A stretch of 64,000 bases of DNA from assembly GCA_964535655.1 (NCBI GenBank), contig CAZHTP010000001.1, forward strand, positions 98,573 through 162,572. Reading direction: 5' to 3'. The number at the start of each line of letters is the position of its first letter. Position 1 is the first letter of the stretch. Below the pieces are notes generated by a model, which had not been told where the DNA came from, made no database searches, and was given only the letters and a program-made list of their open reading frames with translations. The position numbers and the translations under genes were made by a program. Below are positions 1,971-47,195 of the stretch, one piece after another. The DNA is from an uncultured Gammaproteobacteria bacterium (GTDB lineage Bacteria; Patescibacteriota; Microgenomatia; JALYQM01).

Positions 1971-1997
1971 CATACCATTCAGGGCTTATTTATTGGC

Positions 1998-2026
1998 TTG
2001 ACACGACCTAACCAGTATATTATCTT
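1998..2026 (+). promoter_or_regulatory. Putative sigma70-type promoter (TTGACA-N17-TATCTT) upstream of the histidine kinase gene.
   Basis: TTGACA lies at 1998-2003, followed by 17 nt and then TATCTT. The -10 hexamer is weak. Confidence 0.3.
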
Positions 2027-2059
2027 ATATATTGTATTATTGCTATAAGGTAATGTGGT

Positions 2060-3232
2060 ATGGATTATGTTACGCGTGAGCATTGGAATAGGATTTTTGC
2101 ACTTACTTCGGAAGCTATAATTTTTATAAATGATTCTGGGATAATTGAACTCATGAACCCGGCAGCTGAGAAGCTGACCGGATTCTCTGTGCAAGAAGCA
2201 CTTGGCAAATCAGTTCAAGAGGTGTTTGTTGTTGACGGACAAGCGGATTTACTTACTCATCCGGCACTTGGTGCGGCATCATACCGTGACGAACAAACAG
2301 AGCCTGAATATATTGAAGTTCTCCTTACTCGCCAGGATGGAGATTCAATTTGGGTGAGCTGTTCTTTTACGCGTATTGCAGCCGAAGAAGGAGGCGATAA
2401 GCTAGTAATTTTTGCTCGAAATATTAACGAAGCTAAAAAAGCCGAGCAGATGCGATCTGACTTTATTTCAATTGCTTCACATGAACTGCGGACTCCTCTT
2501 ACGGTTGTTGCGGGATATTTATCACTGCTTATTGCCGGTAAGGTGGGTAAATTGCAAGAGCAGCAAAGTAATTTTATTAAGCAGATTTATGATGATACAC
2601 AAAGTCTTTCGAGTTTAGTTGAAGATTTACTTGATGTATCACGATTGGATAGCGGGAAGTTTCGCTTACATAAAAGTGCCATGTCCCTATACGATATCTG
2701 CAAGAAAACTATTGATAGTTTGACGGATAAGGCGATAGAAAGAAATATTGGTATTGTGTATACTGCAGATAAGGTCATTCCGCCTTTTCATGGAGACAAG
2801 GCCAAAGTAAGACAAGTATTGACTAATGTTATTGATAATGCTATCAAATATACCAATCCAGGTGGAAAGATTCGGGTCGGATTGAAAGTTAGTGAGACTC
2901 AGTTTATTGTAACAGTTAGCGATAATGGCTATGGTATTGAAAAGAAAGATTTGCCACATATTTTTGAACGGTTTTATCGCAGTGAAAATAAGCTTTTGGA
3001 CCGTGTAACCGGTGCAGGACTTGGGCTTTATATAAGTAAAACGATTATAGAAATGCACGAAGGTAGTATACGTGTTGATAGTACCTTTGAAAAAGGTACG
3101 ACGTTTACGATATCATTACCGCGTGACTTAGCTTTTGAGCGGGGACAGACGATTCAACCTGTAGAGAAAGCACCAAACGCGTTTCAACAGTTTTTGGCTA
3201 ACTTTTTACACGGTAAACGTCGAAAGGAATAA
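2060..3232 (+). CDS. Cytoplasmic PAS-domain sensor histidine kinase with HisKA and HATPase_c domains.
   Basis: The N-terminal PAS-like region has no TM segment. It carries an H-box (SHELRTPLT), an N-box (DNAIKYT), and G1/G2 boxes (DNGYGI, GAGLGL). Confidence 0.85.
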   Translation: MDYVTREHWNRIFALTSEAIIFINDSGIIELMNPAAEKLTGFSVQEALGKSVQEVFVVDGQADLLTHPALGAASYRDEQTEPEYIEVLLTRQDGDSIWVSCSFTRIAAEEGGDKLVIFARNINEAKKAEQMRSDFISIASHELRTPLTVVAGYLSLLIAGKVGKLQEQQSNFIKQIYDDTQSLSSLVEDLLDVSRLDSGKFRLHKSAMSLYDICKKTIDSLTDKAIERNIGIVYTADKVIPPFHGDKAKVRQVLTNVIDNAIKYTNPGGKIRVGLKVSETQFIVTVSDNGYGIEKKDLPHIFERFYRSENKLLDRVTGAGLGLYISKTIIEMHEGSIRVDSTFEKGTTFTISLPRDLAFERGQTIQPVEKAPNAFQQFLANFLHGKRRKE

Positions 3233-6293: not shown

Positions 6294-6824
6294 ATGGACG
6301 ACACACAGAATAAAAATGATGCTGTCCAAGATGATGTTATTGATACCGATGAAGGTACTACAGATTCTGGTGATGATGTGGTGCAAAAGCTCATGGCACA
6401 GAACGAAGATTTGACTAATAAATGGAAGCGAGCAGTTGCTGACTACCAAAATCTTGAGAAGCAGGTGCGTCGCGAGAAAAGCGAATTTATGCAGTTTGCG
6501 ACCATGAATGTTATTGTGCAGTTTTTGCCAATCTTGGATAATTTAGAGCAAGCATTGGGCGGAATGAAAGATGAGGAGAAAAAGAGCGGTTGGGCTGTGG
6601 GGGTGCTGATGACTGCTAAGCAGTTTAAAGATATGCTTAAAGAGGAAGGGCTAACTGAAATTAAAGCAGAAGGTGAGGAATTTGACGCTCATAAAATGGA
6701 GCCAGTAGATACAGTGGAAGGTGAGAAAAATAAAGTTATCACAGTTATTAAAAAAGGATATGAAGGGTTTGGAAAAGTGGTAAGACCAGCTCAGGTAATT
6801 ATTGGAAAAGGAATGAATAGTTAG
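6294..6824 (+). CDS. grpE: Nucleotide exchange factor GrpE.
   Basis: GrpE coiled-coil and C-terminal beta domain motifs are present (KRAVADYQNLEKQVRRE..., VIKKGYEGFGKVVRPAQVII). The RBS is GGGGGA. Confidence 0.9.
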   Translation: MDDTQNKNDAVQDDVIDTDEGTTDSGDDVVQKLMAQNEDLTNKWKRAVADYQNLEKQVRREKSEFMQFATMNVIVQFLPILDNLEQALGGMKDEEKKSGWAVGVLMTAKQFKDMLKEEGLTEIKAEGEEFDAHKMEPVDTVEGEKNKVITVIKKGYEGFGKVVRPAQVIIGKGMNS

Positions 6825-11298: not shown

Positions 11299-12500
11299 GA
11301 AATTTTCGTGAAGACTTTCCATTGTTACAGAATAGAGAGGTTGTCTTTTTGGATTCAGCGGCGAGTGCACAAAAGCCGAAACCAGTAATTGAGGCGATGG
11401 TTGATGTAATGGAGAGGCATTATGCGAATGTTAATCGCGGCGTATATACCTTGTCTGAAGAGGTCACGGTGCTTGTTGAAGAATCACGAGCTACAGTGCA
11501 GAAATTTATTAATGCAACCCAACCAGAAGAAATCATATTTACCAGAAATACAACGGAATCAATTAATTTGATAATGTATACATGGGCGCGGAAAAATTTT
11601 GTTAAAGGCGATATTGTCGTGATTACGGAAATGGAACATCACTCGAATATTGTTCCCTGGCAAATGTTACGAGATGAAATTGGTGTTGAGCTTGTTTGGA
11701 TTCCTGTGAATGACGAAGGGTACTTGGCATGGGAAGAGTTTAAAACGCGAGATACTTCACGGATTAAGTTAATTTGTGTGACTCATGTTTCCAATGTTTT
11801 AGGCACTATAAATCCAATTAAAGAAATTGCCTCCTGGACTCATGCCATTGGTGCCAAAATTTTAGTTGATGGCGCCCAAGGGGTTACAAATATTCCTGTT
11901 GATGTGCAAGATCTTGATGTGGATTGGTATGCGTTTTCGGGGCACAAGTTATATGGACCGAGTGGGGTTGGCGTTCTCTATGGAAAGACTGACTTATTGG
12001 GTGAGATGCAGCCATTTTTAGGGGGCGGCGATATGATCTTAGAGGTCACAAAAGAAAAGACAACGTATAAGGAGCCACCGCATAAGTTTGAAGCAGGAAC
12101 TCCAGCAATTGTTGAAATTATAGGATTAGGTGCTGCAATTGATTATGTTTTGGCAATTGGGATGGATGTAATTCGTGAACATAATTTAGAATTGACGACA
12201 TATGCTATTGGGAAGTTGAACCACATTGAAGGCGTTAAATTGTATGGTCCTTCAAAAGTAGAACATAAGGGTGGAGTGATTGCATTTTCAATGGAAGGAA
12301 TTCATCCGCATGATATTGCAACTATTCTTAATGAAAACTCGATTGCGATTCGAAGTGGGCATCATTGTGCACAACCCTTATGTGACCGAATGGGACAGTC
12401 AGCACTAGCGCGAGTGAGCTTTGGAATCTATAACACTAAGGAAGAAATCGATTTGCTTATTACTGGATTACAACAGGTACGATCTGTATTTAAACTATAA
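11295..12500 (+). CDS. sufS: Cysteine desulfurase SufS (class V aminotransferase).
   Basis: The PLP-lysine motif FSGHKLYGPSGVGVLYG is present, together with a C-terminal catalytic Cys region (RSGHHCAQP). A 4-nt start/stop overlap with the upstream gene suggests coupling. Confidence 0.9.
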   Translation: MRNFREDFPLLQNREVVFLDSAASAQKPKPVIEAMVDVMERHYANVNRGVYTLSEEVTVLVEESRATVQKFINATQPEEIIFTRNTTESINLIMYTWARKNFVKGDIVVITEMEHHSNIVPWQMLRDEIGVELVWIPVNDEGYLAWEEFKTRDTSRIKLICVTHVSNVLGTINPIKEIASWTHAIGAKILVDGAQGVTNIPVDVQDLDVDWYAFSGHKLYGPSGVGVLYGKTDLLGEMQPFLGGGDMILEVTKEKTTYKEPPHKFEAGTPAIVEIIGLGAAIDYVLAIGMDVIREHNLELTTYAIGKLNHIEGVKLYGPSKVEHKGGVIAFSMEGIHPHDIATILNENSIAIRSGHHCAQPLCDRMGQSALARVSFGIYNTKEEIDLLITGLQQVRSVFKL

Positions 12501-12502
12501 AA

Positions 12503-12868
12503 ATGAATTTATACCAAGACGAAATTCTCGATCATTATAAACATCCTCATAATAAAAAGCGTCTTAGTGATGTTACCGATTCTGTTGAGGCGGTTAATCC
12601 GTTATGCGGTGATAAGCTTGGACTTGATGTTAAAATTCTTGACGGAGTGATTTGTGAGGCTGGGTATTGGGGAGAGGGGTGTGCAATTTCGCAAGCTTCG
12701 ATGTCGATGCTTAGTGATGAGCTAATCGGCATGAAAGTTGTTGATTTGGAGGGAATTACGCAAGAGACAATTTTAGAAATGTTGGGAGTTTCCGTTGGAC
12801 CGTCTCGGTTAAAATGTGCTTTACTTCCGCTTACTCTGGTTCAAAAGATTCTCAAGAATTTGCATTGA
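12503..12868 (+). CDS. sufU: SufU/IscU-like sulfur-transfer scaffold.
   Basis: NPLCGDKL...GCAISQASMSM...KCALLPL matches the conserved Cys/Asp ligands of SufU. Confidence 0.85.
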   Translation: MNLYQDEILDHYKHPHNKKRLSDVTDSVEAVNPLCGDKLGLDVKILDGVICEAGYWGEGCAISQASMSMLSDELIGMKVVDLEGITQETILEMLGVSVGPSRLKCALLPLTLVQKILKNLH

Positions 12869-12904
12869 TTAGGTATAGTATATTTGGTATAGTTATGGAG
12901 CTTT

Positions 12905-13168
12905 ATGGGAAAACTTGTTAAAAAAGTAAAAATTGATCAAAGTATGTGTATTGGTGCGGGAACGTGCGTTGTTCTCGACCCGAACGGTTTTTTGCTCGAT
13001 GCGGAAAATAAAGCAGTATATAAAGATCCGGAAAATCCCGGTGTAACTCTTGTTGAATATGAATTTCCTCAGCCGGTCGATAATTTTGACCTGGTTCAGG
13101 CAGCTGAAGGATGTCCGGTTCAATGTATATATTTATATGATGAAAACGGGGAACAAATTTTTCCTTAG
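12905..13168 (+). CDS. Small mono-cluster ferredoxin.
   Basis: CIGAGTC...CPVQCI matches the Cys spacing of single [3Fe-4S]/[4Fe-4S] ferredoxins. The gene lies directly downstream of sufU. Confidence 0.7.
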   Translation: MGKLVKKVKIDQSMCIGAGTCVVLDPNGFLLDAENKAVYKDPENPGVTLVEYEFPQPVDNFDLVQAAEGCPVQCIYLYDENGEQIFP

Positions 13169-13188
13169 TTTTAGAAAGGACTAATGCT

Positions 13189-14013
13189 GTGAGCGAACAT
13201 GATATTGATAAAAAGGATGCTGTAGTAGGCGCATCGGAGGAGCAGAAATCAACTCCTGTTATTCACCAGAATATAAATCGTGGTGGATTTTTAAATGGCG
13301 GGTGGCCAACGACATTACTATTCCTCATTGCTTTCTTTGTCGTTAGTTATTCCCTTGGGGTTGTAATTGAGCGGAATAATAAAATTACAACAGGTGGTGG
13401 AACTGGAACTCAGGCTGCAGGCAATAGAAATTTTACTATTACTGGCTTTAAGAAAGCTGCATCTGATTTGAAGCTGGATACTAAGAAGTTTAATGCCTGT
13501 CTTGATTCAGGAAAGTATGCGGCTGATGTTAAGAAAGATTCTGACGAAGGTATTTCACTTGGTATTAATGGAACTCCATCGTTTGTTATTAACGGGGTTG
13601 CACTTGTGGGCGCACAGCCTTTGACGGTATTTCAGCAGATTTTACAAGGATCGCCAATAGTTATGGATCCGGAGGCAACTACTTCGGCAGGAATGGCTGA
13701 CGGAAAGAAGGTGACAGGAACGATTGCAATGGATAATGTTCGAATGAGAGGAGATAAAAATGCCCCTATAACTATTGTTGAATATTCGGATTTTCAATGC
13801 CCTTACTGTGGTCGATTTTATCAGGATACTTATCGTAAGATTGATGAAGAATTTATAAAAACAGGTAAAGCTAAAATTGTATTTAAAGATTTTCCTCTTT
13901 CTATTCATCCTCAAGCTTCTAAAGCTGCGGAAGCAGCACGTTGCGCACAGGAACAGGGTAAGTTTTGGGAGATGCACGACAAATTATTTGAACTTCAGTT
14001 GAGTTCGACCTAA
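13189..14013 (+). CDS. Membrane-anchored DsbA/BdbD-like thiol:disulfide oxidoreductase with circularly permuted domain order. The C-terminal half precedes the CPYC-containing N-terminal half.
   Basis: The TM helix WPTTLLFLIAFFVVSYSLGVVI is followed by the DsbA C-terminal block (FNACLDSGKYAADVKKDSDEGISLGINGTPSFVINGV). Then comes the N-terminal block (NAPITIVEYSDFQCPYCGRF...FWEMHDKLFE), after which the ORF ends. Confidence 0.75.
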   Translation: MSEHDIDKKDAVVGASEEQKSTPVIHQNINRGGFLNGGWPTTLLFLIAFFVVSYSLGVVIERNNKITTGGGTGTQAAGNRNFTITGFKKAASDLKLDTKKFNACLDSGKYAADVKKDSDEGISLGINGTPSFVINGVALVGAQPLTVFQQILQGSPIVMDPEATTSAGMADGKKVTGTIAMDNVRMRGDKNAPITIVEYSDFQCPYCGRFYQDTYRKIDEEFIKTGKAKIVFKDFPLSIHPQASKAAEAARCAQEQGKFWEMHDKLFELQLSST

Positions 14014-27530: not shown

Positions 27531-28475
27531 ATGATTCACAATGTTATTGTTATTGGTTCGGGGCCGGCAGGTTTGACGGCGGCTCTATATCTTTCACGGG
27601 CAGAATTAAAGCCGTTTGTAATTGCAGGTGGTACTCCTGGTGGTCAGTTAATGATTACGACTGAAGTAGATAATTATCCTGGATTTCCTGAAGGGATTAG
27701 TGGTCCTGAGTTGATGCAACGAATGACTGATCAAGCGAAGCGCTTTGGTGCTGAGTTTATAAATGAAGATGCAACGAAGGTGGATTTTTCGCGTAAAGAT
27801 TCGGATATTTTGAAGGTTTGGGTGGGGGAAACGCTGCATGAATCACGTGCTGTAGTTATTGCTACTGGCGCCAGCGCGATGTGGCTTGGCCTTCCGAATG
27901 AAGCGCGTTTGCAAGGGCACGGTGTGTCTGCGTGTGCAACTTGTGATGGATTTTTCTTTAAGGGAAAAGATATTGCGGTTGTTGGAGGTGGAGATACAGC
28001 AATGGAGGAAGCAACGTTTTTAACTCGTTTTGCTAATTCAGTGACAGTTATTCATCGACGAAGTGAACTTCGTGCCAGTAGAATTATGCAGGAGCGGGCA
28101 AAAAACGATCCAAAAATAAGGTTTATGTTTGATACGGTTGTTGAAGATGTGTTGGGTCAGGATAAGGTAGAGGGGCTAAAACTTAAAAATGTTAAGAGCG
28201 GTGAAACTAGTGATGTGGTTTTCAAAGGACTATTTTTAGCGATTGGCCATAAACCCAATACGGAGATCTTTAGAGAATCGGGTCTTGAATTTGATGGTAC
28301 TGGGTATTTGGTAGGTGAACGTGAGACATGGACGAAACTTGAAGGAGTGTTTCTGGCGGGGGACGTGACTGATCATATTTATCGTCAGGCAGTGACTGCT
28401 GCGGGGAGTGGATGTAAGGCGGCGATTGATGTGGAGCGTTGGTTGGGGGAGGTTAAAACAGAGAGGAATTGGTAG
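27531..28475 (+). CDS. trxB: Thioredoxin-disulfide reductase TrxB.
   Basis: GSGPAGLTAALY (FAD binding), the redox-active site CATCDGFFF, and GGGDTAMEEA (NADPH binding) are present. Confidence 0.92.
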   Translation: MIHNVIVIGSGPAGLTAALYLSRAELKPFVIAGGTPGGQLMITTEVDNYPGFPEGISGPELMQRMTDQAKRFGAEFINEDATKVDFSRKDSDILKVWVGETLHESRAVVIATGASAMWLGLPNEARLQGHGVSACATCDGFFFKGKDIAVVGGGDTAMEEATFLTRFANSVTVIHRRSELRASRIMQERAKNDPKIRFMFDTVVEDVLGQDKVEGLKLKNVKSGETSDVVFKGLFLAIGHKPNTEIFRESGLEFDGTGYLVGERETWTKLEGVFLAGDVTDHIYRQAVTAAGSGCKAAIDVERWLGEVKTERNW

Positions 28476-28505
28476 GTCTCTCCCTTTCTCGCTGAATACT
28501 ACGCC

Positions 28506-28580
28506 GACACGCTTAATGCCTCGTCTTCGCTCGGCATTTAGAAGCTCTGCTCTGCCGTCAGTAGTTTGGCAGAGAAGGTC
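28506..28580 (+). repeat. Copy A of a roughly 75-nt intergenic two-hairpin element. It may be a structured RNA, a REP-like repeat or a 3'-UTR motif.
   Basis: It is about 85% identical to 44784-44856. Hairpin 1 pairs AATGCC (28515-28520) with GGCATT (28533-28538). Hairpin 2 pairs CTCTGCC (28550-28556) with GGCAGAG (28568-28574). The element starts 30 nt after the trxB stop. Confidence 0.5.
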
Positions 28581-28640
28581 GGCTTTAGTATTTCAGTCTC
28601 GAAAGCATTCATAAACAATTATCAATTTTTTATATTAAAA

Positions 28641-28669
28641 AACCTCTCTAAAAGAGAGGTTTGTTTTTT
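28641..28669. terminator. Bidirectional intrinsic terminator (AACCTCTCT-aaa-AGAGAGGTT, with A-run upstream and T-run downstream).
   Basis: A perfect 9-bp inverted repeat is flanked by ATTAAAA and TGTTTTTT. It lies between the convergent trxB gene and the small minus-strand gene. Confidence 0.7.
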
Positions 28670-38559: not shown

Positions 38560-38829
38560 ATGGCTTTAGCTAACGACGCTAAAAAGACTATTATTTCTAC
38601 AAACCAGATCCATCAAGGTGATACTGGGTCTCCTGAAGTTCAGGTAGCTATTCTCTCAGAGCGAATCACTCGTCTTACAGAGCATTTGAAGCTTCACAAA
38701 GGTGATAATCACTCTCGACGTGGTCTTTTGCAGATGGTAAATAAGCGCCGAAGACTCCTTATGTATCTTATGAAGAAAGATCCAGAGCGATATAAGTCCG
38801 TTGTTGCTAAAGTTGGCTTGTCCAAGTAA
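38560..38829 (+). CDS. rpsO: 30S ribosomal protein S15.
   Basis: [40 protein letters not shown]...KRRRLL is the S15 signature. Confidence 0.9.
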
Positions 38830-38865
38830 CACTCTTAATGAGAGTATTTTCTAAACCCTCCTTGA

Positions 38866-38962
38866 TGTCATTACGGTGGCACGCATAATTCCTCGCAAAG
38901 CTCGGAATTTAATGCTCAGCTTTTTTGCTAGTGGTATGAAAAAGAAGGCCACTGTGAATGAC
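38866..38962 (+). promoter_or_regulatory. Structured RNA region in the rpsO-pnp intergenic space. A long-range stem encloses nested hairpins, and it may be a processing or terminator element.
   Basis: TGTCATTACGGTGGC (38866-38880) pairs with GCCACTGTGAATGAC (38948-38962) at 13 of 15 positions. An inner hairpin pairs AATTCC with GGAATT (38887-38909). A small hairpin ACTCT-taatg-AGAGT lies immediately after the rpsO stop. Confidence 0.3.
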
Positions 38963-38974
38963 TTCTTCGGAGGT

Positions 38975-39001
38975 TTAGAGATTTATCATAATAGGGTATA
39001 A
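38975..39001 (+). promoter_or_regulatory. Putative pnp promoter (TTTAGA-N17-TATAAT).
   Basis: A consensus -10 TATAAT lies at 38996-39001, with an approximate -35 spaced 17 nt upstream. The pnp ATG follows about 147 nt downstream. Confidence 0.35.
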
Positions 39002-39148
39002 TGTCTATATTATTGTTTTCCCTTACCTTGGGAATCTTGGCATGATTTTGGATCCTGAATTAAACAGAAAAACTCTTTTTTCTGCTTGATCGAGGAATCT
39101 GAAAACTGTCGTGATGTGTCTTTTAGGTTAAGGAGAAGGAGTTATTTT

Positions 39149-41371
39149 ATGGCGAATATTATTTCGCAGAGTATTAAAATCGGAGATTCCGAGTTACTAC
39201 TTGAACATGGTCGTTTTGCAGCCCAAGCAAGCGGCGCAGTGATTGGTAGAATGGGCGAGACTATGGTTCTTGCAACGGTTGTTGCAAGCAAAAAAGAGTC
39301 TTCTTTAGACTATTTTCCTTTATCTGTTGAGTTTCTTGAGCGGCTTTATGCTGGTGGAAGAATTTCTTCTTCTCGCTTTATTAAACGTGAAGGTCGCCCT
39401 TCAGAAAATTCAATTTTAACTGCACGTCTTATTGATCGTTCAGTTCGTCCACTTTTTCCCGATGGATTTAAGAATGAAGTTCAGATTGTTGTTACCGTTC
39501 TTTCTGTTGACCTTGAACATGATCCAGATGTACTTGGCGTTATCACGGCAAGTGCTGCACTTGCAGTATCTGATATTCCTTGGAATGGTCCACTCGCTGC
39601 AACTCGCTTAGGCTGGAAAGATGAGACGTATTTGGTTAATCCAGTTGCTGAGGTAATGAGGGTTTCTCAGATGGATTTAATTGTTTCTGGAACAAAGAAT
39701 GAAGTTGTAATGGTTGAAGCTGGGATGCAAGAAATGCCAGAAGAGACTGTTGTTAATGGTCTTGAAGAAGCGCAGAAATATAACAAAATTGTTGTTGAAG
39801 GTATTGAAGAACTCGTTAAGAAAGTTGGAAAAGAGAAGTTTCATTTTGAAAAAGCTGAGATCTCTCAAGAAGATAAAGATGCTGTTACTCAGGTGGCACT
39901 CCCCCTTATTAATGAGATGGTTGAGCTTGCTGCTCAAAAGAAACTTAATAAAGAAGACGCTCTTGGTGAATTAAAGAAGCAAGTTGAAGAAAAACTTGCT
40001 GCTGTTGCAACAGAAGAAAGGCCAGTTCCATCAAAAGCTGTTATTGGCGAACTTTCGGAAAAATTGTTTAAGAAATCTATTCGCACTAATACACTTACTA
40101 CTGGAAAGCGTGCTGATGGACGATCATACGATCAGGTCCGTGAATTGGAAATTGAAGTCGGAGTAATTCCTCGTACGCATGGTTCAGCAATGTTTCAGCG
40201 TGGAATGACTCAAACTTTAACAACGGTAACTTTAGGATCTCCGTCACTTGAACAACTAATTGAAGGCCCGGGTGGCGAAGAAACTAAGCGCTACATGCAC
40301 CATTATAATTTCCCTCCTTATTCGGTGGGAGAAGCAAGGCGAATGGGTTCGCCAGGTCGTCGCGAAATAGGACACGGAGCACTTGCTGAGAGAGCCTTAG
40401 TTCCAGTTATTCCTCCACAAGAGCAGTTTCCCTATGCTATTCGTGTTGTTAATGAAATTATGTCTTCTAACGGGTCTTCTTCAATGGCTTCAGTCTGTGG
40501 GTCTTCACTTGCACTAATGGACGCAGGTGTTCCCGTTAAAGCGGCTGTTGCCGGTGTTGCGATGGGACTGATGACCAATGAAGAAGGTACGAAGTATGCC
40601 GTGTTAACCGATATTCAAGGTCTTGAAGATGCAACTGGTGATATGGACTTTAAAGTTGCTGGTACAGCAAAAGGTATTACTGCTTTGCAGATGGATATTA
40701 AACTCTCTGGTTTAAAACACGAATGGCTTAAGGATGCTGTTATGCAGGCCAAAGCAGGAAGAATGTTTATTCTTAATGCCATGCTTGAGAAGATCTCCCA
40801 GGCACGTCCTACACTTTCTAAATATGCACCTCGTGTTGTGATGATGAAGATTGATCCAGAGACCATTGGTTTAGTAATTGGTGGTGGTGGAAAAACTATC
40901 AATCAGATTATTAATCAGTGTGGTGTCGCGATTGATATTGAGGATGACGGCACCGTGCTTATAAGCGGAACTGAAGATGACGGTATTGCTAAGGCGCAGG
41001 CTTGGATTCTTTCTTTAACCAAAGAAATTAAAGTTGGTGAAGTATATGAAGGTGTTGTAAAACGAATTCTTGCTTTTGGCGCATTTGTTGAAATTCTACC
41101 TGGTAAGGAAGGTATGGTTCATATTTCGAAGCTTGCTCCAAATCGTGTTGAACGTGTAGAAGATGTCGTTCAGGTTGGTGATACCGTAACTGTTCGTGTT
41201 GATGAAATCGATTCCGAACGCCGTATTAACCTCACTATGGATGTTGCTGGTACATGGGTAAAAGAAGATCGCGGAGATGATACTAGCCATGGTGGAGGTC
41301 GTGAAGGAAGATTCGAGCGACGAGATCGTAATGGTGGCGGACGCAGTGACCGAGGTGGAAGACGTTGGTAG
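39149..41371 (+). CDS. pnp: Polynucleotide phosphorylase (PNPase) with an Arg/Gly-rich C-terminal tail.
   Basis: The RBS is AAGGAGAAGGAG. Two RNase PH domains, a KH domain and an S1 domain are present (GEVYEGVVKRILAFGAFVEI). The C-terminus reads GGGREGRFERRDRNGGGRSDRGGRRW. Confidence 0.93.
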   Translation: MANIISQSIKIGDSELLLEHGRFAAQASGAVIGRMGETMVLATVVASKKESSLDYFPLSVEFLERLYAGGRISSSRFIKREGRPSENSILTARLIDRSVRPLFPDGFKNEVQIVVTVLSVDLEHDPDVLGVITASAALAVSDIPWNGPLAATRLGWKDETYLVNPVAEVMRVSQMDLIVSGTKNEVVMVEAGMQEMPEETVVNGLEEAQKYNKIVVEGIEELVKKVGKEKFHFEKAEISQEDKDAVTQVALPLINEMVELAAQKKLNKEDALGELKKQVEEKLAAVATEERPVPSKAVIGELSEKLFKKSIRTNTLTTGKRADGRSYDQVRELEIEVGVIPRTHGSAMFQRGMTQTLTTVTLGSPSLEQLIEGPGGEETKRYMHHYNFPPYSVGEARRMGSPGRREIGHGALAERALVPVIPPQEQFPYAIRVVNEIMSSNGSSSMASVCGSSLALMDAGVPVKAAVAGVAMGLMTNEEGTKYAVLTDIQGLEDATGDMDFKVAGTAKGITALQMDIKLSGLKHEWLKDAVMQAKAGRMFILNAMLEKISQARPTLSKYAPRVVMMKIDPETIGLVIGGGGKTINQIINQCGVAIDIEDDGTVLISGTEDDGIAKAQAWILSLTKEIKVGEVYEGVVKRILAFGAFVEILPGKEGMVHISKLAPNRVERVEDVVQVGDTVTVRVDEIDSERRINLTMDVAGTWVKEDRGDDTSHGGGREGRFERRDRNGGGRSDRGGRRW

Positions 41372-42577: not shown

Positions 42578-44749
42578 ATGTCAAATGATACTAATGAAAA
42601 TAACAAAAATGATGGAGTAACTGATTTCTCAGCACTTGTTCCTCAAAAAAATAGATATAATCCTGCGAAGGATTCCGTACAGGTAGCACTTGGTGAATTG
42701 CGAGAGAATATCGCGCAAAAAAATCGCCCTCCCTTTCAGAAAAGAAATGATGGGACACGTCCAGTGCCACGAAATGATGCTCCACGTATCGATGGATCCC
42801 GCACTGATGGTCCACGTCGGCCGGCTCGAGCACCTGCTCCTAATCGTCGACCGCAAGGTGATGGCTATGGAGACCAGATACGCCCTGCTGGTAATCGTCG
42901 CAGTGGTTCGTATGAACCTCGTCGCCGCGATTCACGAGGACCAAGTCAGAACCGCTATCCACAATCACCTCGCCCTATGAGTTCATCAATGGCACGAGGT
43001 GCAACAATTCAAAATACTAACTTATCTCAGCAATGGTATGCCGAAACGGTACCGGTGTTACGGAAAGATCCTAACGTAGTTGAAACTGCAAAACTGCGCA
43101 TTCTTCCTATTGGAGGAATTAATGATGTTCAAAAGAATATGTATGTCTATGAAACCGAAAAAGACATAATAATTATCGACTGCGGGATGGGTTTTGCAGA
43201 CGAAGATATGCCGGGTGTTGATTATTTAATTCCTGATATTTCATATCTTAATGACAAAAAAGATAAGATTCGCGCAATTCTTATTACTCACGGGCATGAT
43301 GACCATATCGGAGCGTTATCGCTAATTTGGCCACAATTAAGGTGTCCTATTTATGCTTCGCATATTACAACTGGTTTTATAAAAACCAAAATGACTGAGC
43401 ATAATTTGCCGGTTGAAGATATTAAAGAGATTGATCCAGACGCATCATATGAATTTGGTGTGTTTAGATTTCAATTCTTTAGATTAAGTCATTCCATTCC
43501 TGATACGTTGGGGTTTGTAATGGATACTCCTGTTGGTAGAATTATTCATAGTGCAGATTTTAAATTTGATTATACTCCGGTAATAGGATTACCAACTGAT
43601 GTTCAGCGTATTGCACGATTTGGCGCAGAAGGTGTTTTGTTATTGCTTTCAGATAGTCTTGGCGCTGAAAAGCCAGGCTATACATTATCTGAAACTGTAG
43701 TTGAAGGACAATTTGATGTTGTTACTGCAAAAACTGTAGGTAAAGTAATTGTCACTACAACTAGCTCAAATATTTCTCGTATTCAGCTTGCTATGAATAT
43801 TGCAGCCAAGTACAATCGCAAAGTTGCTGTGTCTGGGCGTTCAATGGAACAGAATATTGGTGTTGCTCGTAATCTCGGATACTTGAAGTATTCTGATGAT
43901 ATGTTTATTGAGCTTGAGGATATTGGGAAGTATGAGGACCATGAATTGTTCTTAATTGTAGCGGGATCACAGGGGCAAATGGAATCAGCTCTTGGTCGTG
44001 TGTCCCGCGATGAACATAAACAGATTCGCCTTCGCCAGGGTGATTCAGTGGTGTTTTCAACGGATCCAATTCCCGGTAATGAAAACCAGACTAATAAATT
44101 AATTGACGCGCTTATCTCGCATGGTGCTGAAGTGTATTATTCAAATATTTTTAGTAACCTGCATGTTTCAGGTCACGCTGCTCAAGAAGAGCTTAAACTA
44201 ATGATTAGCCTCGTTCGCCCACAATACCTCTTACCTATTGGTGGAACAGCACGAAGTACTAAGAAGTATCGTGATATTGCTATGAATATGGGCTTCAATC
44301 AAGAGTCGGTGTTACTTCCTCAAGAAGGTGAGGTAATTGAATTTAATGTTAAAGACGGAGTTTCTACGCCTTCGATTAACGGTCGCTTTGAAGCAAAGGA
44401 TGTGATGGTTGATGGTCTTGGGGTGGGAGACTTATCTGACATTGTGATTCGCGATCGTCAAGTAATGGCTGAAGAGGGTATGTTGGTAGTTATTGTTCCG
44501 GTTGATCATAAAACGGGGCATACGGAAAGTGGGGTCGAGATTGTTTCGCGTGGATTTGTATACATGAAAGAATCGACTCAGTTGATTGATGACATTACTA
44601 AACTGGTTGAGGATATTCTTGAAGAGCAGCATGGTAAGCCAATGGATTGGACGCTTCTTCGAAAGAAGATTGAAGATCGAGTAAGTAAGTTTATCTTTAA
44701 AGAGATTAAACGTAAACCTATGGTTTTGCCGGTGGTGTTTGAGGTTTAA
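42578..44749 (+). CDS. rnj: Ribonuclease J (metallo-beta-lactamase/beta-CASP) with a roughly 170-aa Arg/Pro/Gly-rich N-terminal extension.
   Basis: ILITHGHDDHIGAL (HxHxDH) and beta-CASP motifs are present, together with the RNase J C-terminal domain. The N-terminus reads RNDGTRPVPRNDAPRIDGSRTDGPRRPARAPAPNRRPQGDGYG... Confidence 0.88.
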   Translation: MSNDTNENNKNDGVTDFSALVPQKNRYNPAKDSVQVALGELRENIAQKNRPPFQKRNDGTRPVPRNDAPRIDGSRTDGPRRPARAPAPNRRPQGDGYGDQIRPAGNRRSGSYEPRRRDSRGPSQNRYPQSPRPMSSSMARGATIQNTNLSQQWYAETVPVLRKDPNVVETAKLRILPIGGINDVQKNMYVYETEKDIIIIDCGMGFADEDMPGVDYLIPDISYLNDKKDKIRAILITHGHDDHIGALSLIWPQLRCPIYASHITTGFIKTKMTEHNLPVEDIKEIDPDASYEFGVFRFQFFRLSHSIPDTLGFVMDTPVGRIIHSADFKFDYTPVIGLPTDVQRIARFGAEGVLLLLSDSLGAEKPGYTLSETVVEGQFDVVTAKTVGKVIVTTTSSNISRIQLAMNIAAKYNRKVAVSGRSMEQNIGVARNLGYLKYSDDMFIELEDIGKYEDHELFLIVAGSQGQMESALGRVSRDEHKQIRLRQGDSVVFSTDPIPGNENQTNKLIDALISHGAEVYYSNIFSNLHVSGHAAQEELKLMISLVRPQYLLPIGGTARSTKKYRDIAMNMGFNQESVLLPQEGEVIEFNVKDGVSTPSINGRFEAKDVMVDGLGVGDLSDIVIRDRQVMAEEGMLVVIVPVDHKTGHTESGVEIVSRGFVYMKESTQLIDDITKLVEDILEEQHGKPMDWTLLRKKIEDRVSKFIFKEIKRKPMVLPVVFEV

Positions 44750-44783
44750 ATTGGTAGTAGCTTTCTTGTCGAGCTTTGATGGT

Positions 44784-44856
44784 GACACGCTTAACGCTTC
44801 GTATTCGCTTGCGTTTAAAGCTCTACTCTGCCTTTAGTTGTTTGGCAGAGAAGGTC
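44784..44856 (+). repeat. Copy B of the roughly 75-nt two-hairpin intergenic element.
   Basis: GACACGCTTAACGCTTCGTATTCGCTTGCGTTTAAAGCTCTACTCTGCCTTTAGTTGTTTGGCAGAGAAGGTC. Hairpin 1 pairs AACGC (44793-44797) with GCGTT (44811-44815). Hairpin 2 pairs CTCTGCC (44826-44832) with GGCAGAG (44844-44850). The element starts 35 nt after the rnj stop. Confidence 0.5.
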
Positions 44857-45011
44857 ACCACAAAGCTCTCCTTCAAAAGCTTATCTTCTCGTGGCTCACC
44901 AGCGGAATTTCTATCTTCAAAACTCTCAACGCGGAAGTTGTAATAGCATCACTGAGATTTTATTTCAAGTTCGTGACAAATGGGCTTGGTGCTGCTATAG
45001 TAGTTTTTGAA

Positions 45012-47195
45012 ATGTCAAAATCTGCCAAGAAACCCGCCAAAAAAACATCATCGTCGCGTCGAGCAAAGCGAGGTGGTTTAAGTCCTGCAGTGTTACGCTC
45101 TTCTTTTGCCATTTTGTTGTATGTTGGCGCGCTTCTCGTAATTCTTTCGTTTGTTTTGAAGAGCGATATCTTTTTATCAATTCGCGAAAATTTATTTCAT
45201 TATTTTGGGTTAGGAATGTTTTTTCTTCCCTTGATACTTATCAGTTTTGGAATTTTCGTACAAGGCTTCAAGTTAAAATTAGGTCAGCCACATATATTAG
45301 TGGGAGTACCTCTGTGTGTGCTTTCGTTGTTAGCCTTAATTTCTCCCTTTTCATTTGATTATTCTGGAGTAGTAGGGAATAGAGTATGGGGGAGTTTAAA
45401 TGAGTTTTTGCCGATGCCGATAACCAGCTTGTTGTTGGTTATTATTTTGGTTATTGGCTTGGCGGTGCTTTTTGATACGTCGCTTGATTTGTTTTTTGAA
45501 AAAATATTTCAGGGAATTGGTGGTTTCTTTAATTTAATATTCAGTCGCTTTGTTTGGCATAAATCTGCCATAGAAGTGTCTCGCAGTACGGTTAGTACTC
45601 TTTCGGCTGTCTCGACGGCGGCTCCATCGGGTGGATTACGTGAAGGTTTACGGATTTTTGGAAAGAAAGAGAAGAAAATAGTTGATCCGGCTATGGATGA
45701 TGGTGTAAAGCCTGAGCCGCCAAAGAAAATGTCGGAAGAGGAATCTATAAGCATTCGAATGGGAAATCCATCATTATCTGGACAAGTTTGGAATTATCCT
45801 CCTCTTTCAATTTTTTCTAACGCTCCAGGTAAGCCTGCGGATCGTGGAGATGTAAAGAACAATTCTAATATTATCGAAAAAACGCTGGAGAGTTTTGGCA
45901 TTATTGCTAAAGTAGTCGAAATTGATCAAGGGCCGGCTGTGACTCGTTATGCCCTTGATTTAGCACAGGGAACTAAAATTGCAAAAATAACTTCATTGCA
46001 GTCTGATTTAGCGATGGCGCTTGCAGCTCATACCGGTGAGGTTCGTATTGAGGCTCCAATCCCAGGTAAAGCCTTGGTTGGTATCGAAATTCCAAATAGA
46101 ACCCTCGAGATTGTTCCCATCCGATCTATTTTGGGCAACGAAGATGTTAAGAATCATAAATCTAAGTTACTTGTTCCCCTTGGATTTGATGCGGCTTGTC
46201 GCCCCCTTATTGCTGATATTACTCGCATGCCGCACTTATTGGTTGCTGGTACTACTAACTCGGGTAAATCGGTGATGCTTAATGGCATTATCGTATCTTT
46301 GTTGTTTAGAGCAAGCCCAGACGAGGTTAAATTAATTTTAGTTGATCCAAAGCGCGTGGAAATGGGCGGCTATAATGGTTTACCTCATTTGCTTACTCCA
46401 GTTATTCATGATGCTGATAAGATTGTGTCTGCTTTGAAATGGGCTGTTGCAGAAATGCAGCGTCGTTACCAGATGTTCTCTGAAGTTGGGGCTCGAAATA
46501 TCAGCAGTTACAATGAGATGAGTGGGTTTCAGGCGGTACCTTATATTGTCATTATTATTGACGAGTTGGCTGATTTGATGATGTTCGCGCCATCTGAAGT
46601 AGAAGAAGCGATCTGTCGTTTAGCGCAGATGGCTCGAGCGGTTGGAATTCATTTGATTATTGCTACACAACGTCCTTCAGTTGATGTTTTGACCGGTTTA
46701 ATTAAGGCTAACATCCCTGCTCGCATGGCATTTAACGTTTCTTCGCAAGTTGATTCACGCGTTATTTTGGATACTCAGGGGGCAGAAAAGCTTTTGGGTA
46801 GGGGAGATATGCTATATCTTGCTTCTGATGCAGCCAAGCCAACGCGAATTCAGTCGCCTTTTGTTCGAGACGAAGAAATTAATGCGTTGGTAAACTTTAT
46901 TAAAGCATCAGGTATTGCTCCGGTTTATACTGAGGAAGTTGTTACGCAACCTATTAACTCAGTGCGAGGTGGAAATGGATCAATGGGTAGCGATGATGAA
47001 CATGATCCCCAGTATGATGAAGCAATGCGGATTGTTATAGATTCTGGTAATGCTTCAGCATCTTTCTTGCAACGTAAAATGAAGGTAGGCTATGCACGTG
47101 CTGCTCGATTGTTGGATCAGTTGGAAGCTTCGGGGGTTGTAGGGCCAGCTAATGGCTCGAAGCCGCGAGAGATATTGCGAAGGGACGTGCAGTAG
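45012..47195 (+). CDS. ftsK: DNA translocase FtsK/SpoIIIE (N-terminal 4-TM anchor, motor domain, gamma winged-helix domain).
   Basis: Walker A is LVAGTTNSGKS and Walker B is IIIDELADLMM. The gamma domain reads DPQYDEAMRIVIDSGNASASFLQRKMKVGYARAARLLDQLE. The start is chosen at the Met before the first TM. Confidence 0.88.
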   Translation: MSKSAKKPAKKTSSSRRAKRGGLSPAVLRSSFAILLYVGALLVILSFVLKSDIFLSIRENLFHYFGLGMFFLPLILISFGIFVQGFKLKLGQPHILVGVPLCVLSLLALISPFSFDYSGVVGNRVWGSLNEFLPMPITSLLLVIILVIGLAVLFDTSLDLFFEKIFQGIGGFFNLIFSRFVWHKSAIEVSRSTVSTLSAVSTAAPSGGLREGLRIFGKKEKKIVDPAMDDGVKPEPPKKMSEEESISIRMGNPSLSGQVWNYPPLSIFSNAPGKPADRGDVKNNSNIIEKTLESFGIIAKVVEIDQGPAVTRYALDLAQGTKIAKITSLQSDLAMALAAHTGEVRIEAPIPGKALVGIEIPNRTLEIVPIRSILGNEDVKNHKSKLLVPLGFDAACRPLIADITRMPHLLVAGTTNSGKSVMLNGIIVSLLFRASPDEVKLILVDPKRVEMGGYNGLPHLLTPVIHDADKIVSALKWAVAEMQRRYQMFSEVGARNISSYNEMSGFQAVPYIVIIIDELADLMMFAPSEVEEAICRLAQMARAVGIHLIIATQRPSVDVLTGLIKANIPARMAFNVSSQVDSRVILDTQGAEKLLGRGDMLYLASDAAKPTRIQSPFVRDEEINALVNFIKASGIAPVYTEEVVTQPINSVRGGNGSMGSDDEHDPQYDEAMRIVIDSGNASASFLQRKMKVGYARAARLLDQLEASGVVGPANGSKPREILRRDVQ

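What the first reader, a model, noticed from the sequence alone, without database searches (positions are those of the whole stretch)
44784..44856. Second copy of the two-hairpin element, downstream of RNase J
Copy B keeps the identical CTCTGCC...GGCAGAG stem and the GAGAAGGTC tail. It changes hairpin 1 in a base-pair-preserving way. It lies in the rnj-ftsK intergenic region, about 155 nt upstream of the ftsK start. If the element is transcribed with rnj it would sit at the 3' end of a ribonuclease mRNA. That would be an interesting place for a stability or decay determinant.
Basis: seen in the sequence. Interest (0 to 1): 0.55.

Follow-up and report, generated by a model that had tools for sequence, protein, structure and literature searches.

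The report
Structured intergenic repeat, not rnj-specific
The two-hairpin sequence behind the RNase J gene is real, but it is one copy of a small family of scattered, strongly folded intergenic repeats in a candidate-phyla-radiation (CPR) bacterial lineage, and it is not a control element tied to RNase J.

Summary
Copy B (44784-44856) shares a 75-nt core, 85% identical, with a copy behind trxB. There is a third copy between rpsO and pnp. In every copy the two hairpins are enclosed by a long closing helix, giving a 120-135-nt three-way junction (B = 44759-44885).

A covariance model scores the three window copies at 96-104 bits; the next best hit scores 13. It finds five more copies in two related CPR/Patescibacteria genomes. 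Across seven copies, 94% of the predicted base pairs are standard pairs (about 40% when the 3' partners are shifted 1-3 columns as a control). 19 of 34 pairs show changes on both sides. G·U outnumbers A·C 10 to 2.

Occupancy is not conserved. The rnj-ftsK spacer has no copy in four relatives, the trxB 3' site in three, and the rpsO-pnp site in two. Relatives carry copies at other sites, one of them reversed. No match was found in Rfam 15, viral contigs or phage genomes.

The best reading is a non-autonomous, bcr1/MITE/REPIN-like interspersed repeat whose single-strand fold is under selection. Its position after rnj is incidental. It is probably co-transcribed with rnj. Any effect on mRNA decay is inferred, not shown.

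It is a new member of a known kind, of moderate interest.

The parts
44759..44885 (+). Copy B, full element: closing helix P1 plus the three-way-junction core.
   Evidence: MFE fold -50.7 kcal/mol, z -5.4; 95.7 bits with covariance model R1.
44759..44786 (+). Copy B, P1 5' arm. It pairs with 44854-44881. Four optional outer pairs are 44753-44756 with 44882-44885.
   Evidence: Helix table; P1 pairs covary across copies (helix 1: 8 of 12 pairs changed on both sides).
44789..44821 (+). It is preceded by the invariant junction bases AC (44787-44788).
   Evidence: (helices 2 and 3 are 100% paired; 8 of 12 pairs changed on both sides).
44823..44853 (+).
   Evidence: (helix 4).
44854..44881 (+). Copy B, P1 3' arm.
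28484..28605 (+). Copy A. It starts 9 nt after the stop codon of the thioredoxin-reductase-like gene (27531-28475) and lies upstream of a bidirectional intrinsic terminator at 28640-28662.
   Evidence: (104 bits).
38848..38981 (+). Copy C, between rpsO (ends 38829) and pnp. Its 3' end overlaps the -35 hexamer (TTTAGA, 38974-38979) of a predicted pnp promoter.
   Evidence: (99 bits).
42578..44749 (+). RNase J gene, upstream of copy B.
   Evidence: Pfam RNase_J_b_CASP, RNase_J_C and Lactamase_B.
44973..45001 (+). Promoter-like site for ftsK (GTGACA-17-TATAGT, with a TG extension), 88 nt downstream of the element. The same site is present in the relative that lacks the element.
45012..47195 (+). 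ftsK gene, downstream of copy B.
   Evidence: Pfam FtsK_SpoIIIE, FtsK_alpha and FtsK_gamma.

Best explanation
Copy B belongs to a lineage-restricted family of non-coding interspersed repeats, about 90-135 nt long, in a Microgenomates/Daviesbacteria-like CPR (Patescibacteria) clade.

Each copy folds as a single strand, in the element's own orientation. A long imperfect closing helix (P1, about 20-30 bp) is capped by a sequence-conserved three-way junction carrying two short hairpins. The junction reads ...GRC-AC-GC..[P2]..GC-U-CU.CU..[P3]..AG-A-AG-GYC...

Copies appear and disappear at different intergenic sites in related genomes. Sub-families with the same P1 ends occur at unrelated sites. 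The element therefore behaves as a small non-autonomous mobile or duplicative element of the bcr1 / MITE / REPIN kind. Its fold is kept by selection, either for its own propagation or for tolerance and function in transcripts.

Its place behind rnj is incidental.

Inferred, not shown: in this genome B is co-transcribed with rnj. As a stable structure with a helix of more than 20 bp, it could block 3'-to-5' exonucleases or serve as a double-strand-specific endonuclease site. That is what has been reported for REP and Correia elements.
For: Family and fold:
- Models R1 and R2 find three window copies at 96-104 bits.
- They also find L008 at 82-91 bits, three copies in L015 at 62-80 bits, and a degenerate copy in L046 at 25 bits.
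- On seven copies, 93.9% of the predicted base pairs are standard pairs. The figure is 34-45% when the 3' partners are slid 1-3 columns as a control, and 76% in shuffles.
- 19 of 34 pairs have changes on both sides, and 0 of 500 shuffles reach any of the measures.
- G·U 10 against A·C 2 points to a strand-specific fold.
- All copies fold well below their shuffles, z -3.5 to -5.4.

Dispersal:
- The rnj-ftsK site has no copy in L011, L013, L016/L017 and L015.
- The rpsO-pnp site has no copy in L011 or in the 136 nt held after rpsO in L018. In L015 it is filled, in reverse orientation.
- The trxB 3' site has no copy in L018, L019 and L020.
- The L008 copy sits at a site syntenic with window 1970-2060, which is empty.
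- A and the L008 copy lie at different loci yet share 121 nt at 83% identity, P1 included.
- L015c and L046 share their P1 ends at different loci.

Context of B:
- No terminator lies between rnj and ftsK.

Analogues in the literature:
- bcr1 is about 155 bp, has a non-conserved distribution, is transcribed, and keeps a cruciform-like fold with two independent stem-loops through compensatory changes (PMC3184786).
- Correia elements bind RNase III and are either cleaved or protected by it (PMC2649163).
Against: - No transposase, no target-site duplication and no autonomous parent element was identified. The flank analysis is inconclusive.
- The most conserved part is the centre of the element, not its termini. 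This is the reverse of classical MITEs and REPINs.
- Only 8 copies from 3 genomes are known, and the alignment used for pair counts was fitted to the model.
- Compensatory changes may reflect selection on 'master' copies for mobility rather than any function in mRNA.
- No expression data exist. One copy is reversed relative to its neighbours, one lies upstream of a promoter and one lies in a 5' leader. A uniform 3'-UTR role is therefore not supported.
Confidence: 0.6

Rival explanations
1. An RNase-J-specific cis element: a 3'-UTR stability or decay determinant, or an autoregulatory site that evolved for rnj and, in copy C, for pnp.
For: B starts 9 nt after the rnj stop codon with no terminator in between. 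C and the L015 copy at 6332-6420 lie in the rpsO-pnp spacer. In E. coli that spacer holds the RNase III-cleaved hairpin that controls pnp (established knowledge). Three of the 8 known copies lie next to ribonuclease genes.
Against: The element is absent downstream of rnj in all four relatives examined. It is absent between rpsO and pnp in L011 and L018, and reversed there in L015. Other copies flank trxB, a PA14-repeat gene, PFOR-beta and nusA. The sampled DNA was fetched around rnj and pnp, so closeness to RNase genes is partly an ascertainment effect.
Confidence: 0.05
2. A multi-copy family of independent structured small-RNA genes. The RNA could be a protein-binding scaffold or a new self-cleaving or otherwise catalytic RNA, with the conserved three-way junction as its functional core.
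For: Junction nucleotides are nearly invariant, while the helices vary only by compensation. The 3' part of the P3 loop (GUAU/GUUU) and the P2 bulge (UA/UAG) are conserved (alignment). The G·U excess fits a folded RNA. No known Rfam family explains it.
Against: There is no conserved promoter at a fixed distance. A terminator follows only some copies. Copies are not at orthologous sites, which is unusual for sRNA genes. Loop-loop complementarity was seen in one copy only and is not conserved (inspection of the sequences). There is no match to any ribozyme class in Rfam, even at E = 10.
Confidence: 0.15
3. A purely DNA-level element: a classical TIR-bounded MITE, a protein-binding or cruciform site, or a ~75-nt core that inserts into pre-existing palindromes such as terminator stems. 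In this reading the apparent RNA fold is a by-product of inverted-repeat symmetry.
For: P1 is a long inverted repeat. Sequence homology between A and B is confined to the 75-nt core, while their P1 arms differ. One copy is inverted at the same spacer. The empty trxB site in L018 carries the small palindrome TTTTCGAAAA where A's outer arms read CTTTC...GAAAG.
Against: P2 and P3 are not related to each other by inverted-repeat symmetry, yet both covary. The G·U to A·C ratio of 10:2 is not expected for duplex DNA. The reverse strand scores only 11-13 bits. P1 arms travel with the core in three sub-families found at unrelated loci. That argues against insertion of the core alone into local palindromes.
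Confidence: 0.15

Closest known systems
bcr1 interspersed repeat of the Bacillus cereus group (Okstad 2004; Klevan 2007; as summarised in PMC3184786)
   Same: A non-coding repeat of about 100-155 nt. Its distribution is not conserved between related genomes. The predicted fold is a closing stem with two independent stem-loops ('cruciform-like'), kept by compensatory base changes. It lies in intergenic regions.
   Different: The phylum is unrelated, and sequence homology was not tested. bcr1 has 5-bp direct repeats and documented transcription; neither is shown here. Copy number here is unknown (8 copies in about 206 kb sampled).
Correia repeat-enclosed elements (CREE/NEMIS) of Neisseria (PMC2649163)
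   Same: A small intergenic repeat with inverted-repeat arms. It is co-transcribed with neighbouring genes and can create promoter hexamers at its ends. Copy C's 3' end supplies a predicted -35 box. The long duplex is a plausible RNase III substrate.
   Different: CREE have conserved 26-bp TIRs, a TA duplication and an IHF site. Here the termini vary between sub-families and the centre is the conserved part. No RNase III data exist for this element.
REP / REPIN elements mobilised by RAYT transposases (PMC3337134, PMC3116915, PMC3733652)
   Same: Persistent populations of long-hairpin intergenic elements within one lineage, often just 3' of genes. A strand-specific single-strand fold is recognised. 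Effects on mRNA 3'-end stability are known.
   Different: REPINs are two conserved 25-mers at the hairpin base around a variable middle. This element is the inverse: a variable base and a conserved branched tip. No conserved GTAG/CGTC tag was found, and no RAYT gene was seen in the DNA available.
E. coli rpsO-pnp intergenic RNase III hairpin (established knowledge)
   Same: Copy C and one L015 copy are long hairpins in the rpsO-pnp spacer.
   Different: C lies upstream of the predicted pnp promoter, not in the pnp leader. The site has no copy in two relatives and holds a reversed copy in a third. A separate conserved pnp leader motif exists downstream of it.

Membership tests
Any Rfam 15 family (including hammerhead, twister, pistol, hatchet, hairpin, HDV ribozymes, phi29 pRNA, 5S, Y RNA, known leaders) | Covariance-model score at or above the family's gathering threshold | tested here: not met
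   No gathering-level hit in the whole window. At E up to 10, only unrelated eukaryotic miRNA, snoRNA and lncRNA noise around B, A, C and the L015 copies.
Intrinsic (Rho-independent) terminator | GC-rich hairpin followed directly by a U-run | tested here: not met
   No terminator-like site in 44600-45100 or 38700-39150. Copy A is followed by a separate canonical terminator at 28640-28662.
MITE | Small, non-coding, multi-copy, with presence/absence differences between related genomes | tested here: met
   8 copies of 80-135 nt. Orthologous sites are empty in relatives, and there is a filled site where the window is empty.
MITE | Conserved terminal inverted repeats shared by the whole family and with an autonomous IS | tested here: inconclusive
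   Every copy has paired ends. The terminal sequences differ between sub-families: CTTTCTYG..., CTAAACYCTC..., GATATRTTTTA.... No transposase was found among the 29 window ORFs scanned against Pfam. Whole genomes were not available.
MITE | Target-site duplication flanking each copy | tested here: inconclusive
   A possible TCTCG direct repeat flanks CTGAATAC...GTATTTCAG in copy A. The empty site in L018 reads TTTTCGAAAA. No consistent duplication is seen in the other copies. Relatives are too diverged for clean comparison of filled and empty sites.
REP / REPIN-RAYT | Two inverted, conserved REP 20-40-mers (GTAG- or CGTC-tagged) at the hairpin base around a variable spacer, plus a RAYT gene in the genome | tested here: not met
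   Conservation is central, not basal. GTAG occurs in the P2 bulge of the L015-type copies only. The presence of a RAYT gene cannot be tested with the DNA held.
bcr1-like structured repeat | Closing stem plus two independent stem-loops maintained by compensatory changes; non-conserved distribution | tested here: met
   structure and covariation; distribution. This is a resemblance in kind. Sequence homology to bcr1 was not tested.
bcr1-like structured repeat | Transcribed; flanked by 5-bp direct repeats | not testable with these tools
   No expression data. The direct-repeat analysis is inconclusive (see the MITE target-site row).
rnj/pnp autoregulatory leader or 3' element | Conserved association with the regulated gene across relatives | tested here: not met
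   Absent after rnj in 4 of 4 relatives, and absent between rpsO and pnp in 2 of 3 relatives.

The most novel reading that the evidence does not exclude
The nearly invariant three-way-junction core is an active RNA or single-stranded-DNA module. It could be a new small self-cleaving or self-processing ribozyme. Alternatively it could be the specific recognition fold of a CPR-specific enzyme (HUH/Y1 transposase, reverse transcriptase or RNA-binding protein) that drives the element's own spread. That would make it a new class of structured mobile element in ultra-small CPR genomes, rather than a passive palindromic repeat.
Probability: 0.12. Interest if true: 0.7.

Novelty: new member of a known kind. 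Interest (0 to 1): 0.38.

Why it matters
CPR/Patescibacteria genomes are tiny and gene-dense, and little is known about their non-coding repertoire.

- A covariation-supported, lineage-specific structured repeat that comes and goes between close relatives shows that these reduced genomes still host small mobile or duplicative non-coding elements.
- It gives a ready covariance model for annotating such elements.
- It warns against reading each copy as a gene-specific regulator, here of RNase J or PNPase.
- Co-transcribed copies with duplexes longer than 20 bp may shape operon mRNA processing in organisms whose decay machinery (RNase J, PNPase) is encoded right beside them.
- If the conserved junction turns out to be catalytic, or the handle of a dedicated enzyme, the element would be of wider interest.

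Tried and rejected
1. Rfam search: gathering thresholds on the whole window, plus an E up to 10 on four regions. Nothing relevant was found.
2. Exact-pattern scan of metagenome contigs with a 24-base core pattern gave 0 hits. A protein-seeded scan of the same collection with RNase J gave 69 pattern matches, none confirmed.
3. The genome-contig pattern scan gave 10 matches, of which only L008 is real by the covariance model.
4. Viral contigs gave 0 hits, then 25 chance pattern matches, none passing the model. A phage blastn found nothing.
5. The closest rnj relative with a long rnj-ftsK spacer (231 nt) is P0002, at 83% identity. It could not be read because no DNA is served for that sample. The same applied to P0006.
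6. phi29-pRNA-like loop-loop pairing: complementary loops (AUACA / UGUAU) occur in one L015 copy only and are not conserved. Rejected.
7. Resemblance of CAGAGAAGGUC to loop A of the hairpin ribozyme: the rest of that ribozyme is absent and Rfam gives no hit. Rejected.
8. S15-binding three-way-junction mimic: only 2 of 8 copies are near rpsO, they lie downstream of it, and one is reversed. Rejected.
9. Integron attC site: attC conservation is at the stem base, here it is at the tip, and the flanks are housekeeping genes in conserved synteny. Rejected.
10. Target-site duplication and exact insertion borders: inconclusive, because the relatives are too diverged.
11. Whether C and the reversed L015 copy are orthologous (an inversion between the P1 arms) or independent insertions: arm comparisons are ambiguous.
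12. Literature searches for CPR repeats or structured RNAs found nothing specific.

Full report
OBSERVATION

- The stem motif CTCTGCC-N11-GGCAGAG occurs exactly twice in the window, at 28550 and 44826. Shuffles predict 0.01 occurrences.
- The tail GGCAGAGAAGGTC is shared exactly by both copies.
- Pfam confirms the neighbours: RNase J (42578-44749) upstream and FtsK (ATG at 45012) downstream. The element ends 155 nt before the ftsK start.
- Hairpin 1 of B differs from copy A by one U-A to C-G double change, one C-G to U·G change and a 1-nt deletion.

First, a repeat search and the sequence show a third copy, C, at 38866-38962. It lies between rpsO (S15) and pnp (PNPase). Its hairpin-2 stem is fully compensated: CTTTTTT...GAAAAAG.

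Second, in every copy the two hairpins are enclosed by a long imperfect helix, P1. The unit is therefore a three-way junction of 120-135 nt:
- A = 28484-28605
- C = 38848-38981
- B = 44759-44885

The MFE folds are -48 to -51 kcal/mol, with z-scores of -3.5 to -5.4 against dinucleotide shuffles.

Covariance model R1, built from the three copies, scores them at 104, 99 and 96 bits. Nothing else in the window exceeds 12.8 bits.

ORGANISM AND RELATIVES

RNase J homologues carrying source names are labelled Daviesbacteria, Microgenomates or Patescibacteria. The window therefore comes from a CPR bacterium.

A pattern scan of one genome per species gave ten matches. Only one is real by the model: L008, at 82 bits. 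It comes from a 1.57-Mb MAG contig labelled 'uncultured Gammaproteobacteria'. Its proteins are 74-87% identical to the window's, in the same gene order.

Loci around the rnj and trxB orthologues of seven relatives were fetched through the protein index. The models found four more copies, all in one assembly (GCA_964525495.1, RNase J 62% identical):
- L015 830-912
- L015 1435-1523
- L015 6332-6420, on the opposite strand
- L046 9888-9966, a degenerate copy

No copy was found in L011/L012, L013, L016/L017, L018, L019 or L020, even with the search filters off. In all, 8 copies were found in about 206 kb of DNA from this clade.

STRUCTURE

On the seven good copies:
- 93.9% of the predicted base pairs are standard pairs. 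The figure is 34-45% when the 3' partners are slid by 1-3 columns, and 76% in column shuffles.
- 19 of 34 pairs show a change on both sides.
- None of 500 shuffles reaches any of the measures.

One caveat applies: the alignment was fitted to the model.

All three helices covary, including P2 and P3, which are not inverted repeats of one another. G·U pairs outnumber A·C mismatches 10 to 2. The reverse strand scores only 11-13 bits. Both facts point to a fold of one particular strand.

The junction is nearly invariant: P1 ends in GRC, the linker is AC, P2 starts with GC and ends with GC, the next linker is U, P3 is CU(R)CU...AG-A-AG, and P1 resumes directly with GYC. The P2 bulge (UA/UAG) and the 3' part of the P3 loop (GUAU/GUUU) are also conserved. 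One P1 position is a recurrent C·U or U·U mismatch.

Sequence similarity between A and B is limited to the 75-nt core, at 85% identity. Their P1 arms differ in sequence but still pair.

DISTRIBUTION

Occupancy is not conserved.
- The rnj-ftsK spacer. In L011 (RNase J 78% identical) it is only about 44 nt and runs straight into the same ftsK promoter-like sequence. B is absent there. B is also absent after rnj in L013, L016/L017 and L015.
- The rpsO-pnp spacer. It lacks the element in L011 and, in the 136 nt held after rpsO, in L018. In L015 it holds a copy in reverse orientation.
- The trxB 3' site (copy A). It has no copy in L018, L019 and L020. There the stop codon is followed, within 12-20 nt in L018 and L020, by the same bidirectional terminator.
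- The L008 site. L008 has a copy between a PA14-repeat gene and a histidine kinase. The window has only a 90-nt spacer there and no copy.

Sub-families keep the same P1 ends at unrelated loci:
- A and L008 share 121 nt at 83% identity.
- L015 830-912 and L046 share GATATRTTTTA...TAAAAYATATC.
- C and the reversed L015 copy share CTAAACYCTC...GAGRTTTAG.

Contexts vary:
- Five copies start 7-18 nt after a stop codon, co-oriented with the upstream gene. Three of these lie upstream of a canonical terminator.
- One copy is reversed.
- One lies in a divergent spacer upstream of the nusA promoter.
- One lies 35 nt upstream of trxB.

This is the pattern of a dispersed, duplicative or mobile repeat. It is not the pattern of a gene-specific regulator.

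WHAT IT IS NOT

- It matches no Rfam 15 family at gathering level or at E up to 10.
- It is not an intrinsic terminator.
- It was not found in viral contigs or phage genomes.
- No transposase or reverse transcriptase was found among the 29 window ORFs scanned against Pfam.
- Resemblances to pRNA, the hairpin ribozyme, the S15 junction and attC sites were examined and dropped (see Tried and rejected).

MECHANISM

Shown:
- A family of single-strand-foldable three-way-junction repeats exists.
- It is supported by strong covariation.
- Occupancy of sites varies between relatives.
- B follows rnj with no terminator in between.

Inferred:
- The element spreads as a non-autonomous unit.
- The fold is maintained because only fold-competent copies propagate, or because the fold is needed or tolerated in transcripts.
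- When co-transcribed, as B almost certainly is with rnj, the 20-30-bp P1 helix stacked on the junction would impede 3'-to-5' exonucleases or attract a double-strand-specific endonuclease. This is what has been reported for REP and Correia elements (PMC2649163; REP-mediated mRNA stabilisation is established knowledge).
- Copy C's 3' end supplies the -35 hexamer of the predicted pnp promoter. That is another Correia-like property.

I give 0.6 to this overall reading. About 0.8 applies to 'dispersed repeat, not rnj-specific', and much less to the RNA-level effect.

Rival explanations:
- An independent structured sRNA or ribozyme family: 0.15.
- A purely DNA-level MITE, or a core that inserts into palindromes: 0.15.

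COMPARISON WITH KNOWN SYSTEMS

The nearest described analogue is bcr1 of the Bacillus cereus group. It is about 155 bp, has a non-conserved distribution, is transcribed, and keeps a cruciform-like fold with two independent stem-loops through compensatory changes (PMC3184786).

The element differs from classical MITEs and from REPINs (PMC3337134). Its conserved part is the branched tip, while the hairpin base varies. No target-site duplication or mobilising enzyme could be established.

I file it as a new member of a known kind: structured interspersed repeats. It has not been described for CPR bacteria in the literature I could search.

VERDICT

Interest is moderate (0.38).

The most novel reading not excluded is that the invariant junction is catalytic, or is the handle of a dedicated CPR enzyme. 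I give that a probability of about 0.12.

Noticed in passing
window 39045-39100; L011 6515-6585; L015 6505-6565; L018 20865-20915: A conserved pnp 5' leader: an invariant TTTGGATCCTGAA, then a hairpin of variable sequence that keeps its pairing, then TGAGGWATCTRAAA. It is present in all four genomes whether or not the repeat element is present. It could be a PNPase autoregulatory leader. Rfam gave no hit.
   Followed up: partly
L019 10950-11062 (trxB 3' spacer of the 1.57-Mb relative); also L046 10960-11110: At the site where the window has copy A, the relative carries a different insert of about 110 nt. It has a 17-bp closing stem (GAAATGTTTTCTTTTCC...GGAAAAGAGAAACATTTC) and a branched core, z -3.0. 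Model R2 does not detect it. L046 also has an unexplained 230-nt spacer after trxB. The gap between stop codon and terminator seems to collect hairpin inserts of more than one family.
   Followed up: partly
window 28467-28475 and 44749-44757: The 9-mer AATTGGTAG lies 9-10 nt upstream of P1 in both copy A and copy B. In A it forms the last codons and stop of trxB; in B it comes just after the rnj stop. There are only 3 occurrences in the window against 0.73 expected. It may mean that B was copied from an A-like locus together with some flank, or it may be coincidence.
   Followed up: partly
window 38974-39002: The 3' end of copy C (GGTTTAGA) provides the -35 hexamer of the best predicted pnp promoter, TTTAGA-17-TATAAT. 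Relatives without the element have a different -35-like hexamer, read by eye, at the same distance from a conserved -10.
   Followed up: partly
L008 / L011 / L019 (CAYOFQ010000001.1, 1.57 Mb): This MAG is labelled 'uncultured Gammaproteobacteria bacterium'. Its proteins are 74-87% identical to the window's, in the same gene order. The RNase J clade is otherwise named Daviesbacteria, Microgenomates or Patescibacteria. The label is probably a taxonomic misassignment.
   Followed up: no
window 54-1970: A 638-aa protein made of three or four tandem repeat modules. The DNA repeat period is about 460 nt, at 67-70% identity (family D1). The modules are separated by Pro/Thr/Ser-rich linkers. It is 74% identical to its orthologue in L008.
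   Followed up: no
rnj-ftsK spacer in relatives: L013 2158-2481, L015 12161-12475 (- strand), P0006 contig 12346-13364: The rnj-ftsK junction varies across the clade. It holds 0, 1 or 2 small unannotated ORFs (104-144 aa) in different relatives, and the repeat element in the window. It looks like a hotspot for insertions of several kinds.
   Followed up: no
window 38831-38852: A small hairpin, ACTCTTAATGAGAGT, followed by ATTTTCT lies directly after the rpsO stop codon and just before copy C. It is a weak terminator-like site that the consensus scan did not report. If it is functional, copy C would lie outside the rpsO transcript.
   Followed up: no
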